48,077 bases of DNA from a virus (Duplodnaviria; Heunggongvirae; Uroviricota; Caudoviricetes). The stretch lies in the IMG/VR virus record IMGVR_UViG_3300009551_000042. The stretch is one strand, 5' to 3'. The translations under genes were made by a program, and so were the position numbers. Below are positions 4,370 to 19,415 of this stretch, in pieces. Under the pieces are notes generated by a model. The model ran no database searches and had not been told where the DNA came from. It was given only the letters and a program-made list of their open reading frames with translations. The stretch's first letter is position 1. The number at the start of each line of letters is the position of its first letter.

Positions 4370-5104
4370 ATGGTCCGCAACAAGCGCAAGGCGAAGCCCG
4401 GAAATCCAGGCCTAGCGATCGGCTACATCCGAGCCAGCAAAGAGGATCAGGCGCTCACACCTCGGGCCCAGGCCCATGCGCTCGACGCATGGGCGGAGCG
4501 CATGGGCGTGACGTTGGTTGCTGTGTTCTTTGACCTAGGCCTATCCGGCTCGCTAGGGCTCGCCGCAGACGGCTTTCCGGAGCTTGAGAAGCGGCCAGGC
4601 CTAGCCGAAGCCCTGCAAGCGCTCCGCGTGCTCCATGCTGGCTCACTGGTTGTCGCCAAGCGCGATCGGCTTGCCCGTGACGTCACCTTGGCCGGCCTAC
4701 TCGGGCGCATGGCCGGCCATGCTGGCGCACGCATCATCAGCGCCGCTGGTGAGGGCACCGAGCTTGCCGACTCCGAAGACGGCGACGACATGCGCTTGCT
4801 TTATGACATGTTCGCTCAGCGAGAGCGCCGGCTCATCCGGAGCCGCACCAAAGCGGCACTAGCGGTCAAGAAGGCGCGCGGTGAGCGCATCGGGCAAGTG
4901 CCCTACGGCTGGCGCCTGGCGGCCGACGGCGTGACCCTTGAGGTCGACCCGCTCGAACTGGCCACGCTGGAGCACATCAAAGCCGAACGGGCCCGAGGCG
5001 TGAGCCTGCGCGGCATCGTCGCGGACCTGAACGAAGCTGGAGCCTTCGCTCGCGGGTCAAGGTGGCACCTGACGACCATTGCCCGAGTGCTCCGCAAGCC
5101 GTGA
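4370..5104 (+). CDS. serine recombinase (resolvase/invertase family with short C-terminal recombinase domain)
   Basis: GYIRAS catalytic motif, D-x-G-x-SG, RPGL, KRDRLAR, ER..I..RTKAAL, G..PYG, and a terminal helix-turn-helix (W..TTIARVL). Confidence 0.92.
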   Translation: MVRNKRKAKPGNPGLAIGYIRASKEDQALTPRAQAHALDAWAERMGVTLVAVFFDLGLSGSLGLAADGFPELEKRPGLAEALQALRVLHAGSLVVAKRDRLARDVTLAGLLGRMAGHAGARIISAAGEGTELADSEDGDDMRLLYDMFAQRERRLIRSRTKAALAVKKARGERIGQVPYGWRLAADGVTLEVDPLELATLEHIKAERARGVSLRGIVADLNEAGAFARGSRWHLTTIARVLRKP

Positions 5105-17195: not shown

Positions 17196-17751
17196 TCCGC
17201 GTGCTGGAAGTAACGATCCTGAGCTGTGGGATCTTGAGCTCGATTGGTACTTTGGGGACTTTGAAGGGCTGTGTGGACTGCAGAGCGTAGGCACGAGCGG
17301 GGCCGGTGAGAACGCGCTACGTAAGCCAACCGAGGAAGAAAAGGCAGAGCGCCGACAGCGCATCAAAAACGGTTTCTTGCTGACGATGCCAGGGCCACCG
17401 AAGGCCGACCAACATTCTGTCAGCGCGGCCCAGGCCGACGCTGCCGCATTCCAAGCAATGGCCCACGGGGTCTTTGCACGGGGCCGCCGCATCTGGCGCA
17501 AGGTCTCAGCGATGCCCTATGGCGTCCAGCAGCTACTTCGCCAGTCTTACGAGGAGCGCTTGCGCGAGGCTGGCATTGACTGCGGTCGCCCACCGCTGCG
17601 CGACGACCAGGTCAGAGCCGCTCACCGCTGCTATCGAGGCCAGGAATACGACGTCTACTGCGACCTTGTGATTCGGGAGCTAGACCCGCCACCGCCTGAA
17701 CGAAAGCCCTGGAAGAACCCACCCGCGGCGGGAGCACAGCACCAATGGTGA
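17167..17751 (+). CDS. hypothetical protein (position resembles a late-gene regulator)
   Basis: Long ORF shortly upstream of the packaging genes; no family recognised. Confidence 0.65.
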   Translation: MSEKEKPRTNPRAGSNDPELWDLELDWYFGDFEGLCGLQSVGTSGAGENALRKPTEEEKAERRQRIKNGFLLTMPGPPKADQHSVSAAQADAAAFQAMAHGVFARGRRIWRKVSAMPYGVQQLLRQSYEERLREAGIDCGRPPLRDDQVRAAHRCYRGQEYDVYCDLVIRELDPPPPERKPWKNPPAAGAQHQW

Positions 17752-18173
17752 GGGAGCCGGTGGATTCGGTTGTGATGCGCCACGCGCTAGAAGACTCCCA
17801 AGAGCGCGACTTCGCGCGCCGGGTGGAGCCACTAGTTGCCAAGCTCCACGTTGGATACAACTACTTCGAACCGGAAGAGTTCCACGACCTAGCCTGCTAC
17901 TTCACCGAAGGTCGCGCCCGAACAGATGCTGTCAACGATGGCGTTTTCAGGGTCTCAAAGAAGGTCGACGTCATTCGTACGGGATCCGGAACTCTTCAAA
18001 CAATGACCGAGCTTTCCCGCAATTTGGGTGTAGCTCGACAGACGCTCCAAGACTGGGTCGGCACTTTGAAACTTCCGCACCGCTTCCGCGGCAAGCGAAA
18101 GGTCTATAATATCAATGAATTGCGCCGCTATCTGCTGGGCAGACGTGAAGGGGATAACAAGGGTTTACGGTAA
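17745..18173 (+). CDS. protein with C-terminal MerR/excisionase-like HTH
   Basis: TMTELSRNLGVARQTLQDWV..LKLP....GKRKVYNINELRRYL. Confidence 0.75.
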   Translation: MVREPVDSVVMRHALEDSQERDFARRVEPLVAKLHVGYNYFEPEEFHDLACYFTEGRARTDAVNDGVFRVSKKVDVIRTGSGTLQTMTELSRNLGVARQTLQDWVGTLKLPHRFRGKRKVYNINELRRYLLGRREGDNKGLR

Positions 18174-18314
18174 CCCCGCGACGAACCACCTGACTGTCGG
18201 CGTCAAAACCGTCCGCTTTCATGCGCCAATTCGTTTTCGCGGCGCTCCTGTACCTGGAGCCGTATCTAGTCTACCTGCCGTACTCCCCCGCTGTTGCTCA
18301 GCTCTGGGGGTAAC

Positions 18315-18566
18315 ATGATCTCGGTACCCGCCGGCAACGATTACACGCCATGGGTACCGCTGCAGTCCGGAGCCTGCAAAGCTTGCGGACGCGCTGGTTC
18401 CGGCAAAGACCCGAACGAAGTCTTCTCCTACCCGAAGACCGCTGAATCGCTCGTCCTGTGCACTGCGTGTGCTCGTGGGTTGACGATGTGCATAGCCAAA
18501 GAGCTGAAGCAACGGCATGCCAAAAAGCCCACGCCGCCAAAGGCTCCGGCGAAGGTATCTGCGTAA
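18315..18566 (+). CDS. zinc-finger protein
   Basis: GGGGG SD; CKAC...CTAC. Confidence 0.6.
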   Translation: MISVPAGNDYTPWVPLQSGACKACGRAGSGKDPNEVFSYPKTAESLVLCTACARGLTMCIAKELKQRHAKKPTPPKAPAKVSA

Positions 18567-18572
18567 ACGATT

Positions 18573-18650
18573 GGGCCACATTGGTGTCGATTGTGGGCAA
18601 AGCCTCAAGGTCCCCGCAAGACGAGGGTTCGATTCCCTCATGGTCCACCA
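18573..18650 (+). ncRNA. tmRNA tRNA-like-domain-only RNA (no mRNA-like domain)
   Basis: GGGCCAC-ATTGGTGTCGA-TTGTGGG-(15 nt)-CCCGCAA-GAC-GAGGG-TTCGATT-CCCTC-ATGGTCC-A-CCA: G3:U70, A73, encoded CCA, stemless D-loop ending TCGA, GAC linker, canonical T arm. Confidence 0.75.
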
Positions 18651-18731
18651 TGGTGTGAGACGCTGGTTCGAATCCAGCCTCCCAGAGCGATGCTCCAGGA
18701 GTAGCTCAGTGGGAGAGCGCACGCCGCTAAA
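18651..18731 (+). ncRNA. circularly permuted tRNA mimic (T arm before D arm, acceptor stem closed by a loop; YrlA-like topology)
   Basis: TGGTGTG-AGAC-GCTGG TTCGAAT CCAGC-CTCC CA GAGC GAT GCTC CA GGAG-TA-GCTC AGTGGGA GAGC-G-CACGCCG. Confidence 0.7.
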
Positions 18732-18735
18732 CTTC

Positions 18736-18885
18736 GCCGATGTGTCGGCCAGCTAATCCTCGGCAGGGGACCCTGGGACGCATCGGCTTTAATCGAAACA
18801 ACCAGGTAGAGCTTCGCTCCCGGTTGCGTGAGGTGAACGACATGGAAACACGTGACGTTGGCCTTCAGCCCCGCGGTGACGGGGG
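18736..18885 (+). ncRNA. run of four stem-loops in the leader of the small terminase gene
   Basis: GCCGATGTGTC/GACGCATCGGC (18736-18787); CAACC.GG..GAG/CTC.CCGGTTG (18799-18825); AGG..AACG.ACATG-GAAA-CACGT..CGTT..CCT (18831-18864); CCCC/GGGG (18869-18884). Confidence 0.45.
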
Positions 18886-18896
18886 AAATCATCACC

Positions 18897-19415
18897 ATGC
18901 CGAAGAAGAACGCTAGACAACAAGCGATCGAGATTCGCCGAGGCGAAGTGACAAAGCTTCGCACCAAAGGCAATCGCACCTATCGCGAAATAGCCGAGAA
19001 GCTCAACGTAAGTGTTGGGACTGTTGTCGGTGACATGTGGCACGTCCTCGACAATGTGCGCTCGCAACAAGAAATCGACGTCGAAAAATGTCGTGACGTT
19101 GAGCTAGCGCAACTCGACTTCTTTATGACGAAGGTTCTGGCCATCGTCACCGATGAAACAGATCGCGATCTCGTCTTGAAGGCGATTGATCGTGGCGTGA
19201 AGCTGTCCGAACGACGCTCCCGCTTGCTGGGCCTTGATGCGCCTGAGCGCCAGGAGGTTGCAACGGTCGATCTCACCGAAGCAACTCCGGAACGTGCTCG
19301 CGCGATCATGAACGAGCTGTTCCCCGCAATTGGGAATGACACAAATACTGAGGGGCAGCGGGAACAATCCCGCGAACCGGGACTTCTTGTCACGACTGGA
19401 GAGAGCGTTCCCTGA
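18897..19415 (+). CDS. terS: terminase small subunit (N-terminal HTH)
   Basis: TYREIAEKLNVSVGTV HTH, RRSRLLGLDAP motif, directly upstream of and overlapping terL. Confidence 0.75.
   Translation: MPKKNARQQAIEIRRGEVTKLRTKGNRTYREIAEKLNVSVGTVVGDMWHVLDNVRSQQEIDVEKCRDVELAQLDFFMTKVLAIVTDETDRDLVLKAIDRGVKLSERRSRLLGLDAPERQEVATVDLTEATPERARAIMNELFPAIGNDTNTEGQREQSREPGLLVTTGESVP

What the first reader, a model, noticed from the sequence alone, without database searches (positions are those of the whole stretch)
18651..18731. Circularly permuted, acceptor-closed tRNA mimic directly behind the TLD's CCA
Seen: immediately after CCA the sequence gives the 3' anticodon-stem strand (TGGTGTG), variable loop AGAC, a perfect T arm (GCTGG-TTCGAAT-CCAGC), an acceptor-like stem closed as a hairpin (CTCC-CA-GAGC-GAT-GCTC-CA-GGAG), U8A9, a perfect D arm (GCTC-AGTGGGA-GAGC), G26 and the 5' anticodon-stem strand (CACGCCG), which pairs back 7 bp with TGGTGTG. 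T precedes D, there is no free CCA and the open end is at the anticodon. Established: this topology matches the effector domain of bacterial YrlA Y RNAs, which partner Ro60/Rsr. No Ro60/TROVE gene and no obvious Ro-binding bulged helix are visible in the window. Inference: a stand-alone tRNA-elbow mimic that could be a decoy for tRNA-modifying or tRNA-cleaving enzymes, or hijack host Rsr.
Basis: partly seen in the sequence, partly recalled or inferred. Interest (0 to 1): 0.82.

Follow-up and report, generated by a model that had tools for sequence, protein, structure and literature searches.

The report
Phage back-to-front tRNA mimic, probable Y RNA
An uncultured soil phage encodes a tRNA look-alike with its halves in swapped order and its acceptor end sealed, placed directly behind a small alanine-type tRNA-like domain; both sit inside a short helix carrying the Ro60-binding motif, so it is most likely an unusual two-headed member of the known Y RNA class.

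Summary
All tRNA elbow nucleotides are present.

A covariance model built only from similar modules of unrelated IMG/VR phage contigs hits this site at 45 bits (next best in the window 11.6). Rfam YrlA gives 24.8 bits, below its cut-off of 69. Genuine YrlA-like RNAs beside phage Ro60 genes also score only 30-52.

CGGCGAAG (18547-18554) pairs perfectly with CUUCGCCG (18732-18739), brackets both the tRNA-like domain (TLD) and the mimic, contains the published GNCGAA(N)G motif, and matches the YrlA consensus outer stem. Such a helix with that motif occurs at 0.06-0.3% of window positions.

No TROVE gene was found among 40 window ORFs. Earlier scan notes, which I could not check, place a Ro60 gene with three Y RNAs about 58 kb away in the same ~112-kb phage.

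No homologue of this cassette was found. "tRNA followed by a handle-less permuted mimic" recurs in at least 11 phage contigs, and most of those lack Ro60. The scan has flagged similar permuted mimics on other DNA before.

Verdict: a real mimic, probably a new variant of a YrlA-type Y RNA.

The parts
18547..18554 (+). Candidate Ro60 handle, 5' strand CGGCGAAG. GGCGAAGG at 18548-18555 fits GNCGAA(N)G. It lies in the last codons of ORF 18294-18566.
   Evidence: Pairing probability is 0.93-0.99 in RNAfold of 18540-18745. Empirical null 0.056%.
18555..18572 (+). 18-nt linker between the handle and the TLD. It contains the stop codon TAA of the upstream ORF at 18564-18566.
18573..18650 (+). tmRNA-type tRNA-like domain (TLD): acceptor stem GGGCCA/UGGUCC with G3:U70, T arm GAGGG-UUCGAUU-CCCUC, and ACCA end. 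In the composite model it is a branch inserted in the 5' side of the Y RNA stem.
   Evidence: Rfam tmRNA matches only its T arm, at 12.8 bits. It folds as a separate branch.
18651..18657 (+). 3' strand of the anticodon-stem analogue, UGGUGUG.
18658..18661 (+). Variable loop AGAC. C18661 is the Levitt partner of G18709.
   Evidence: This pair covaries as G-C or A-U in 14 of 15 modules.
18662..18678 (+). T arm GCUGG-UUCGAAU-CCAGC.
18679..18701 (+). Acceptor-stem analogue sealed as a hairpin: 4 bp, a 2x2 CA/CA internal loop, 4 bp, and loop GAU.
18702..18719 (+). U8 A9, D arm GCUC-AGUGGGA-GAGC, and G26.
18720..18726 (+). 5' strand of the anticodon-stem analogue, CACGCCG.
18727..18731 (+). 5-nt linker CUAAA. 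Together with the next bases it resembles the AaAcUu segment of the YrlA consensus.
   Evidence: alignment.
18732..18739 (+). Candidate Ro60 handle, 3' strand CUUCGCCG.
18736..18787 (+). Downstream long hairpin (arms 18736-18746 and 18777-18787). Its lowest 4 bp compete with the handle's 3' strand. It may mark the 3' end of the RNA.

Best explanation
Window 18651-18726 is a genuine YrlA-type tRNA mimic. It has the tRNA elbow (D and T arms) and a sealed acceptor stem, with its open end where the anticodon loop would be.

It is probably not free-standing. Together with the alanine-type tRNA-like domain in front of it, it is enclosed by an 8-bp helix (18547-18554 with 18732-18739) that carries the CGAA Ro60-binding motif. 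The whole ~193-nt RNA (18547-18739) would then be a Y RNA with two tRNA-like heads.

Inferred mechanism: the handle docks the phage's (or a host's) Ro60 ring. The tRNA-like heads recruit one or more tRNA-binding factors or PNPase, as proposed for YrlA and shown for phage phiLo Ro60-Yrl-PNPase complexes.

Shown here: the sequence, the fold propensity, membership of the module class, and the motif and helix statistics. Inferred only: transcription as one RNA, Ro60 binding, and the partners.
For: 1. All parts and all tertiary-contact nucleotides are present.
2. A model built without the window sequence hits the site at 45.3 bits, against 11.6 for the next best site.
3. Rfam's best family is YrlA, with a full-length alignment at 24.8 bits. 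Genuine YrlA-like RNAs beside Ro-like genes also stay below the cut-off of 69, at 30-52 bits: Xanthomonas phage MET23-P3, Gordonia phage VanLee, Caulobacter phage CcrColossus, Streptomyces phage GiJojo and IMG/VR record G004.
4. The outer helix CGGCGAAG/CUUCGCCG is identical to the Rfam consensus outer stem cggCga/ucGccg, and the following 3' loop AAACUU matches AaAcUu.
5. It contains GNCGAA(N)G, the motif defined in PMC4201824. CGAA was shown by mutation to matter for phage Ro60 binding in PMC12135203.
6. RNAfold of 18540-18745 gives the outer helix at probability 0.93-0.99, with the TLD and the mimic as two branches.
7. In the window itself, a helix of at least 8 bp in this geometry with the motif occurs at 0.056% of positions. 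With looser rules (at least 7 bp) the rate is 0.3%.
8. The Levitt pair G15-C48 follows the covariation seen in 14 of 15 such modules.
9. Unverified lead: earlier scan notes report a Ro60 gene with three Y RNAs about 28.9 kb beyond the window end in the same phage.
Against: - No homologue of the cassette was found. The closest TerL relative (72% identity, L239) has other RNAs in the same slot and shares only 18792-18837. A metagenome scan returned only chance hits.
- The handle is therefore supported by one sequence, without covariation.
- A 96-nt insertion (linker plus TLD) inside the Y RNA stem has no published precedent.
- The handle's 5' strand lies in the coding end of ORF 18294-18566.
- The handle's 3' strand overlaps the base of a downstream hairpin.
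- The Rfam score is below the gathering score, and sub-threshold YrlA hits also occur in control genomes without Ro60, such as E. coli and B. subtilis.
- Eleven 'tRNA plus permuted mimic' pairs in other phages have no such handle.
- Only 1 of 15 records carrying permuted mimics (mostly such pairs) encodes TROVE.
- If the TLD were processed like a tRNA, the RNA would be cut into pieces.
- I could not verify the presence of Ro60 in this genome.
Confidence: 0.5

Rival explanations
1. It is a handle-less, free tRNA-elbow mimic. The module is cut out of a 'tRNA-like domain plus mimic' precursor by tRNA-processing enzymes. It then acts without Ro60, for example as a decoy or docking site for an enzyme or defence nuclease that recognises the tRNA elbow. 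On this view the CGAA helix is a coincidence.
For: - The same layout, a tRNA 3' end followed after 0-10 nt by a permuted module, occurs in at least 11 IMG/VR phage contigs: L136, L156, L183, L146, L151 (behind a tRNA-Ala), L191, L181, L154, L225, L235 and L232.
- None of these pairs has a helix enclosing it.
- TROVE is absent from 14 of 15 records carrying permuted mimics, and from 7 of the 8 that are at least 90% complete.
- The modules carry stable closing tetraloops and a covarying Levitt pair, so they look selected.
Against: The 8-bp helix with GNCGAA(N)G that brackets this particular pair is expected at only 0.06-0.3% of positions. It copies the YrlA consensus outer stem. The phage is reported to have its own Ro60 gene (unverified). 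No partner or target is known for the handle-less class.
Confidence: 0.3
2. It is evolutionary debris. On this view it is a non-functional chimera left by rearrangements among tRNA-like genes in a variable cargo slot upstream of the terminase genes.
For: - The slot differs in the closest relative.
- The T arm plus CUCC is identical over 21 nt to the tRNA-Tyr of many Burkholderiales, while the D arm is of another type. The halves may therefore have different origins.
- The TLD and the mimic share an 18-nt AGAC-plus-T-arm repeat, and a 16-nt direct repeat flanks the cassette.
Against: Two unrelated halves would not by chance supply all of the following: a 7-bp closing stem, a 4+4-bp sealed acceptor, an intact U8/A14/G15-C48/G18G19/T-loop set, and a flanking 8-bp helix. 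Rough odds are below 1 in 10,000. The same design recurs in independent phages.
Confidence: 0.1
3. It is a permuted or split tRNA gene that matures into a decoding tRNA, as in Cyanidioschyzon merolae. Alternatively it is a phage attachment site carrying tRNA halves.
For: The gene order, with the 3' half before the 5' half, is that of permuted tRNA genes. Phages often integrate into tRNA or tmRNA genes. An excisionase-like HTH protein is encoded at 17745-18173.
Against: - There is no anticodon loop and no bulge-helix-bulge junction.
- The acceptor hairpin has no 7-bp stem and no CCA.
- Identity to bacterial tRNA-Tyr stops after CUCC, before the tRNA 3' end that an attP must carry.
- The only recombinase found in the window is a serine recombinase 13.5 kb away.
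Confidence: 0.04

Closest known systems
YrlA (Y RNA-like A), Rfam RF02553; Salmonella, Mycobacterium smegmatis and mycobacteriophage Y RNAs (Chen et al. 2014, PMC4201824; structure in Wang et al. 2018, 10.1101/312249)
   Same: The order of elements is the same: stem strand, variable loop, T arm, sealed acceptor stem, UA, D arm, stem strand. The elbow and Levitt nucleotides are conserved. The outer helix has the sequence cggCga/ucGccg and carries GNCGAA(N)G. There is no anticodon loop and no free CCA.
   Different: - It scores 24.8 bits against a cut-off of 69.
- A single 7-bp stem replaces the two inner stems.
- A 78-nt tmRNA-type tRNA-like domain plus an 18-nt linker is inserted in the 5' side between the handle and the mimic.
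- It is not adjacent to a Ro60 gene; none was found in the 48-kb window.
- The acceptor hairpin is longer, with a 2x2 internal loop.
Thermus phage phiLo Ro60 with Yrl1/Yrl2 (Hu et al. 2025, PMC12135203)
   Same: It is a phage-encoded Y RNA candidate recognised by a CGAA motif in a stem formed by the 5' and 3' ends. The expected partner is a phage Ro60 acting with host PNPase.
   Different: Yrl1 and Yrl2 are simple hairpins directly upstream of the Ro60 gene and have no tRNA-like module. Here there are two tRNA-like modules, and the locus is far from any Ro60 gene.
YrlA-like RNAs beside Ro-like genes of deposited phages (Xanthomonas phage MET23-P3, Gordonia phage VanLee, Caulobacter phage CcrColossus, Streptomyces phage GiJojo)
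   Same: They have a permuted T arm, sealed acceptor and D arm core, sub-threshold Rfam scores (30-52 bits), and often lie among tRNA genes. One CcrColossus copy has the same T arm, GCUGG-UUCGAAU-CCAGC.
   Different: Those RNAs share a different 5' element (GGUGGCGUAG ... UACUUCG). That element is absent from the window. They also lie within about 1 kb of the Ro-like gene.
Handle-less 'tRNA followed by permuted mimic' pairs in IMG/VR phage contigs (for example L225, L235, L151; not described in the papers I could search)
   Same: The mimic starts 0-10 nt after the 3' end of a tRNA. In L151 that tRNA is a tRNA-Ala with G3:U70, like the TLD here. The module architecture and tertiary nucleotides are the same.
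   Different: Those pairs have a real decoding tRNA in front and no enclosing helix or CGAA motif. They mostly occur in phages without a TROVE gene.
Permuted tRNA genes of Cyanidioschyzon merolae and two-piece (permuted) tmRNA genes
   Same: The 3' half of the tRNA fold is encoded before the 5' half. In the precursor the acceptor stem is closed by an intervening loop.
   Different: Those precursors are processed to give a free CCA end and a working anticodon or tag. Here there is no anticodon loop, no tag, no CCA after the 3' acceptor strand, and no 7-bp acceptor stem.

Membership tests
YrlA / bacterial and phage Y RNA (RF02553) | tRNA-like domain in permuted order: T arm, sealed acceptor stem-loop, UA, D arm, closed by a stem between the flanks. 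| tested here: met
   Sequence; full-length alignment to RF02553; 45.3 bits on the independent model R1.
YrlA / bacterial and phage Y RNA (RF02553) | Conserved nucleotides for tRNA tertiary contacts: D and T loops, the UA linker, a pyrimidine at the end of the variable loop, and the Levitt pair. | tested here: met
   U8 A9, A14, G15-C48, GG in the D loop, and UUCGAAU. The Levitt pair covaries in 14 of 15 modules.
YrlA / bacterial and phage Y RNA (RF02553) | Long stem formed by the 5' and 3' ends, carrying the Ro60-binding GNCGAA(N)G / CGAA motif. | tested here: inconclusive
   An 8-bp helix 18547-54/18732-39 with GGCGAAGG is present and unlikely by chance. However, it is separated from the mimic by a 96-nt insertion, is seen in one sequence only, and binding has not been tested.
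YrlA / bacterial and phage Y RNA (RF02553) | Score at or above Rfam's gathering threshold (69 bits). | tested here: not met
   24.8 bits. Genuine phage copies beside Ro-like genes also fail, at 30-52 bits. Sub-threshold hits also occur in control genomes without Ro60, such as E. coli and B. subtilis.
YrlA / bacterial and phage Y RNA (RF02553) | Encoded next to a Ro60/Rsr (TROVE) gene. | tested here: not met
   No TROVE among 40 window ORFs, including all ORFs of 250 aa or more. A Ro60 gene elsewhere in the genome is reported only by earlier notes.
YrlA / bacterial and phage Y RNA (RF02553) | Physical association with Ro60, and tRNA-type modification by TruB or DusA. | not testable with these tools
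   Needs immunoprecipitation, gel-shift assays or modification mapping.
Canonical tRNA | Cloverleaf in normal order with an anticodon loop and a free acceptor end. | tested here: not met
   ARAGORN finds 0 genes in the window. Rfam tRNA gives no hit.
Permuted tRNA gene (Cyanidioschyzon type) or two-piece tmRNA | Halves that can be rejoined or processed to give an anticodon loop (or tag) and a CCA end. | tested here: not met
   There is no anticodon loop and no CCA after the 3' acceptor strand. Rfam tmRNA_permuted gives 11.9 bits at E = 3.6.
Phage attP in a tRNA gene | Identity with a host tRNA running to its 3' end, with an integrase nearby. | tested here: not met
   The 21-nt identity with Burkholderiales tRNA-Tyr stops after CUCC. 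The only recombinase found among the 40 window ORFs scanned is a serine recombinase at 4370-5104.

The most novel reading that the evidence does not exclude
A single Ro60-handle RNA carries two different tRNA mimics in tandem: a tmRNA-style, alanine-identity acceptor/T-arm domain with an internal ACCA, and a YrlA-style sealed, permuted tRNA. Such a two-headed Y RNA could bring Ro60 and PNPase together with two sets of tRNA-binding factors, for example AlaRS, SmpB, EF-Tu or RNase P on one head and an elbow reader on the other. It would be encoded far from the Ro60 gene, just upstream of the terminase (packaging) genes.
Probability: 0.3. Interest if true: 0.75.

Novelty: new variant of a known kind. 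Interest (0 to 1): 0.55.

Why it matters
Y RNAs are the adaptors that decide what the Ro60 ring, and through it PNPase, acts on. For the bacterial and phage YrlA class, the partner of the tRNA-like head is still unknown.

A Y RNA that carries both an alanine-type acceptor/T-arm domain and a sealed permuted tRNA would narrow the search for that partner to factors that read acceptor/T-arm or elbow shapes. It would also give a compact construct for pull-downs.

Separately, permuted tRNA mimics sit directly behind ordinary tRNAs in many phages that have no Ro60 gene. This suggests the mimic has a use of its own in phage infection. Possible uses are as a decoy, a processing signal, or a docking site for tRNA enzymes or anti-phage tRNA nucleases. 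I found no description of this in the searchable literature.

Tried and rejected
- ARAGORN and Rfam at gathering thresholds found nothing in the window.
- BLAST of the region against 50,697 phage records gave no match.
- No relatives of TerL were found in IMG/VR by peptide patterns, and an exact 24-mer of the mimic had no match in IMG/VR.
- The window's own genome could not be reached. Ro60 in the same phage therefore rests on earlier notes only.
- TerL relatives L239-L244 carry neither the mimic nor the handle.
- A metagenome scan for handle, T-loop and handle returned 43 hits. All were ordinary tRNA genes flanked by chance 7-mers.
- Searches of earlier scan findings, by sequence and among relatives, returned only my own stretch or nothing.
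- The phage-type handle (GGUGGCGUAG ... UACUUCG) was not found in the window.
- Helices enclosing 'tRNA plus mimic' pairs in other phages were looked for; none was credible.
- The second YrlA hit in G004 (L290) is a junction between two tandem tRNAs, a known false positive.
- Model R1 also scores tandem-tRNA junctions, so its score alone does not prove a sealed acceptor.
- The attP reading was rejected because identity to tRNA-Tyr stops early.
- Literature searches for permuted tRNA mimics in phages found only the YrlA papers.

Full report
**What is there**

The window is part of an uncultured phage. Its large terminase is of the Mu gp28 type, followed by portal, SU10-type capsid, tape-measure and baseplate genes. 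Its terminase cluster sits on a 112,077-base contig.

The flagged stretch lies in a non-coding gap between a small zinc-ribbon ORF (18294-18566) and the probable small terminase (18852-19415).
- ACCA of the upstream tRNA-like domain ends at 18650.
- UGGUGUG (18651-57) pairs over 7 bp with CACGCCG (18720-26).
- Between them lie AGAC, a perfect T arm (18662-78), a sealed acceptor hairpin (18679-18701), UA, a perfect D arm (18704-18) and G26.

The nucleotides that hold a tRNA elbow together are all present: U8, A14, G15 with C48, the GG doublet of the D loop, G53-C61 and the loop UUCGAAU.

**Is it more than chance?**

- The 81-nt stretch folds better than all 200 shuffles, z = -2.7.
- ARAGORN finds no tRNA anywhere in the window, so the T arm and D arm do not belong to two neighbouring tRNA genes.
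- I collected modules with the same architecture from unrelated IMG/VR phage contigs by pattern scans and a simple scanner. I built a covariance model from five of them without the window sequence. It matches 18652-18725 over its whole length at 45.3 bits with no non-standard pair. The next best site in the window scores 11.6.
- This model also scores junctions between tandem tRNA genes. The score therefore shows the arrangement of arms, not the sealing, which the sequence itself shows.
- In 15 strict modules the Levitt pair, which my scanner did not constrain, is G-C or A-U in 14 cases. The window has G-C. That is independent evidence that this class folds like tRNA.

**Relation to YrlA**

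With a permissive threshold, Rfam's best family for the site is YrlA: a full-length alignment at 24.8 bits against a curated cut-off of 69. This weak score is neither proof nor disproof.
- Sub-threshold YrlA hits occur in control genomes that lack Ro60, such as E. coli and B. subtilis. One in phage G004 is a tandem-tRNA junction.
- On the other hand, YrlA-like RNAs lying within about 1 kb of Ro-like genes score only 30-52 bits. These are in Xanthomonas phage MET23-P3, Gordonia phage VanLee, Caulobacter phage CcrColossus, Streptomyces phage GiJojo and IMG/VR record G004.

**The missed handle**

The Rfam alignment forced the 5' strand of the YrlA outer stem onto the end of the tRNA-like domain, with several mismatches. 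Its 3' strand aligned well: AAACUU-CGCCG against the consensus AaAcUuGucGccg.

The true complement of that 3' strand lies 96 nt further upstream. CGGCGAAG (18547-54) pairs perfectly with CUUCGCCG (18732-39).
- This helix has the same sequence as the YrlA consensus outer stem, cggCga/ucGccg.
- Its 5' strand reads GGCGAAGG, which fits GNCGAA(N)G, the motif Chen et al. defined for Ro60 binding.
- Hu et al. showed that each base of CGAA contributes to binding of a phage Ro60.

Folding 18540-18745 gives a three-way structure: the outer helix (pair probabilities 0.93-0.99), the tRNA-like domain, and the permuted mimic.

As an empirical null I slid the same geometry over both strands of the window. 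A perfect helix of at least 8 bp occurs at 3.9% of positions, but one that also carries GNCGAA(N)G occurs at only 0.056%. With looser rules (at least 7 bp) and the real site excluded, the figures are 0.3% with the full motif and 1.2% with CGAA alone.

The handle is thus unlikely to be chance. It is still a single observation without covariation.

**Context in the genome**

No TROVE domain was found in the 40 window ORFs I scanned, which include every ORF of 250 aa or more.

Earlier notes of this scan say that the same ~112-kb phage carries several related features:
- a Ro60 gene followed by three Y RNAs, about 28.9 kb beyond the window's end;
- a full tmRNA;
- a 31-gene tRNA array;
- Tpt1 and an Rnl2-like ligase.

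I could not reach that part of the genome, so I treat this as a lead only. If it is true, the element lies about 58 kb from the Ro60 gene, unlike published Y RNAs.

**Comparative evidence**

I found no homologue of the cassette.
- The nearest relative by TerL (72% identity, L239) has a tRNA-Met and another T-arm element in the same slot. It shares only a ~50-nt element just upstream of the small terminase gene, window 18792-18837.
- More distant relatives have other tRNA-like pieces or nothing.
- A metagenome-wide scan for handle, T-loop and handle found 43 matches, all ordinary tRNA genes with chance flanks.

The gap upstream of the terminase genes therefore behaves as a variable cargo slot for tRNA-like genes.

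**A wider class**

The pattern scans showed that permuted tRNA mimics are common in phage contigs and come in at least two forms.
- The first form has long outer stems and conserved 5' elements such as GGUGGCGUAG ... UACUUCG. These are the ones seen beside Ro-like genes in deposited phages. That element is absent from the window.
- The second form has no handle and starts 0-10 nt after the 3' end of an ordinary tRNA. I saw it in at least 11 contigs, one of them behind a tRNA-Ala with G3:U70.

Among 15 records carrying permuted mimics (mostly such pairs), only one encodes a TROVE protein. Among the eight that are at least 90% complete, one does.

The window's layout, an alanine-type tRNA-like domain followed immediately by the mimic, matches this second form. 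The difference is that here the pair is enclosed by a CGAA helix, which none of the others has.

**Weighing the explanations**

The mimic itself is real; I put this near 0.9. The question is whether it works as part of a Ro60-bound Y RNA or on its own.
- For the Y RNA reading: the motif-bearing helix that copies the YrlA consensus, the fold, and the reported Ro60 gene in the same phage.
- Against: the lack of any homologue, the unprecedented 96-nt insertion, the overlap of the 5' strand with a coding end and of the 3' strand with a downstream hairpin, and the existence of a handle-less class in Ro60-free phages.

I put the composite Y RNA at about 0.5, the free handle-less mimic at about 0.3, debris at about 0.1, and a working permuted tRNA or attP together at about 0.04.

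The attP idea fails because the 21-nt identity of the T arm plus CUCC with the tRNA-Tyr of many Burkholderiales stops before the tRNA's 3' end. The only recombinase found in the window is a serine recombinase 13.5 kb away.

The permuted-tRNA idea fails for lack of an anticodon loop, a CCA and a 7-bp acceptor stem.

**Novelty**

YrlA and phage Y RNAs are published (PMC4201824, 10.1101/312249, PMC12135203). This scan has already flagged permuted mimics on other DNA, both next to Ro60 genes and without a handle.

Two things would be new here: the fusion of a tmRNA-type tRNA-like domain and a YrlA-type mimic inside one CGAA handle, and its position far from a Ro60 gene. That makes it a new variant of a known kind, resting on computation and on one sequence.

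Noticed in passing
window 18526-18541 and 18716-18731: A 16-nt direct repeat with 14 of 16 bases identical: AGC(C/G)CACGCCGC(C/U)AAA. The downstream copy is the end of the D stem, G26, the closing-stem strand and the linker. The upstream copy lies in the coding end of ORF 18294-18566 and could compete for pairing with UGGUGUG. It may be a trace of how the cassette was inserted or duplicated.
   Followed up: partly
window 18619-18636 and 18658-18675: The TLD and the mimic share an 18-nt AGAC-G-NN-GGUUCGA-N-UCC segment (15 of 18 identical). Their T-arm regions may be paralogous.
   Followed up: no
window 18792-18837; L239 1807-1856: This is the only stretch of the gap conserved with the closest relative (about 78% identity, ending in CCCGG(U/C)UGCGUGAGGUGAA), just upstream of the probable small terminase gene. 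It could be a late promoter, a regulatory element or a packaging signal.
   Followed up: partly
window 18606-18615 and 18766-18775: A 10-nt complementarity (90%) links the loop side of the TLD's inner helix to the apical part of the downstream long hairpin. It may be a long-range or alternative pairing.
   Followed up: no
window 18852-19415: The ORF in the small-terminase position has an N-terminal HTH. It matches PHROG 645, which is labelled 'RNase E' (E = 8e-20). This is probably a mislabelled terminase small subunit, but it sits directly after the RNA cassette.
   Followed up: no
IMG/VR loci L136, L156, L183, L146, L151, L191, L181, L154, L225, L235, L232: A recurrent pair consisting of an ordinary tRNA followed after 0-10 nt by a handle-less, permuted, acceptor-sealed tRNA mimic. 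It occurs mostly in phage records without a TROVE gene. I found no description of it in the papers I could search.
   Followed up: partly
L413 862-957 and 1322-1430; L414 480-593, 678-774 and 982-1091; L412 1079-1155 and 1244-1307; L411 928-1042; also L040, L045, L081, L116, L078, L099: Y-RNA-like RNAs beside phage Ro-like genes share a 5' element, GGUGGCGUAG-(7-8 nt)-UACUUCG, and a downstream UGUUCCCC. Some keep a whole anticodon-arm look-alike (loop CUGUUAA) before the T arm. All score below Rfam's YrlA cut-off. A second group (L062, L035, L063, L071, L034) has (A/U)CAGCAA instead.
   Followed up: partly
L291-L370 (genome contigs): The mimic's T arm plus CUCC (21 nt) is identical to the 3' part of the tRNA-Tyr(GUA) of many Burkholderiales (Rubrivivax, Roseateles, Sphaerotilus, Ramlibacter, Hydrogenophaga). 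This may be a weak hint about the host, or only a common T arm.
   Followed up: partly
L239 1100-1700: In the closest relative the same slot holds a tRNA-Met (1588-1663) and a T-arm element followed by GGCGAGUGGGG-N-GGUGCCCAG. That segment recurs in IMG/VR loci L167 and L174. It is an unidentified structured RNA.
   Followed up: no
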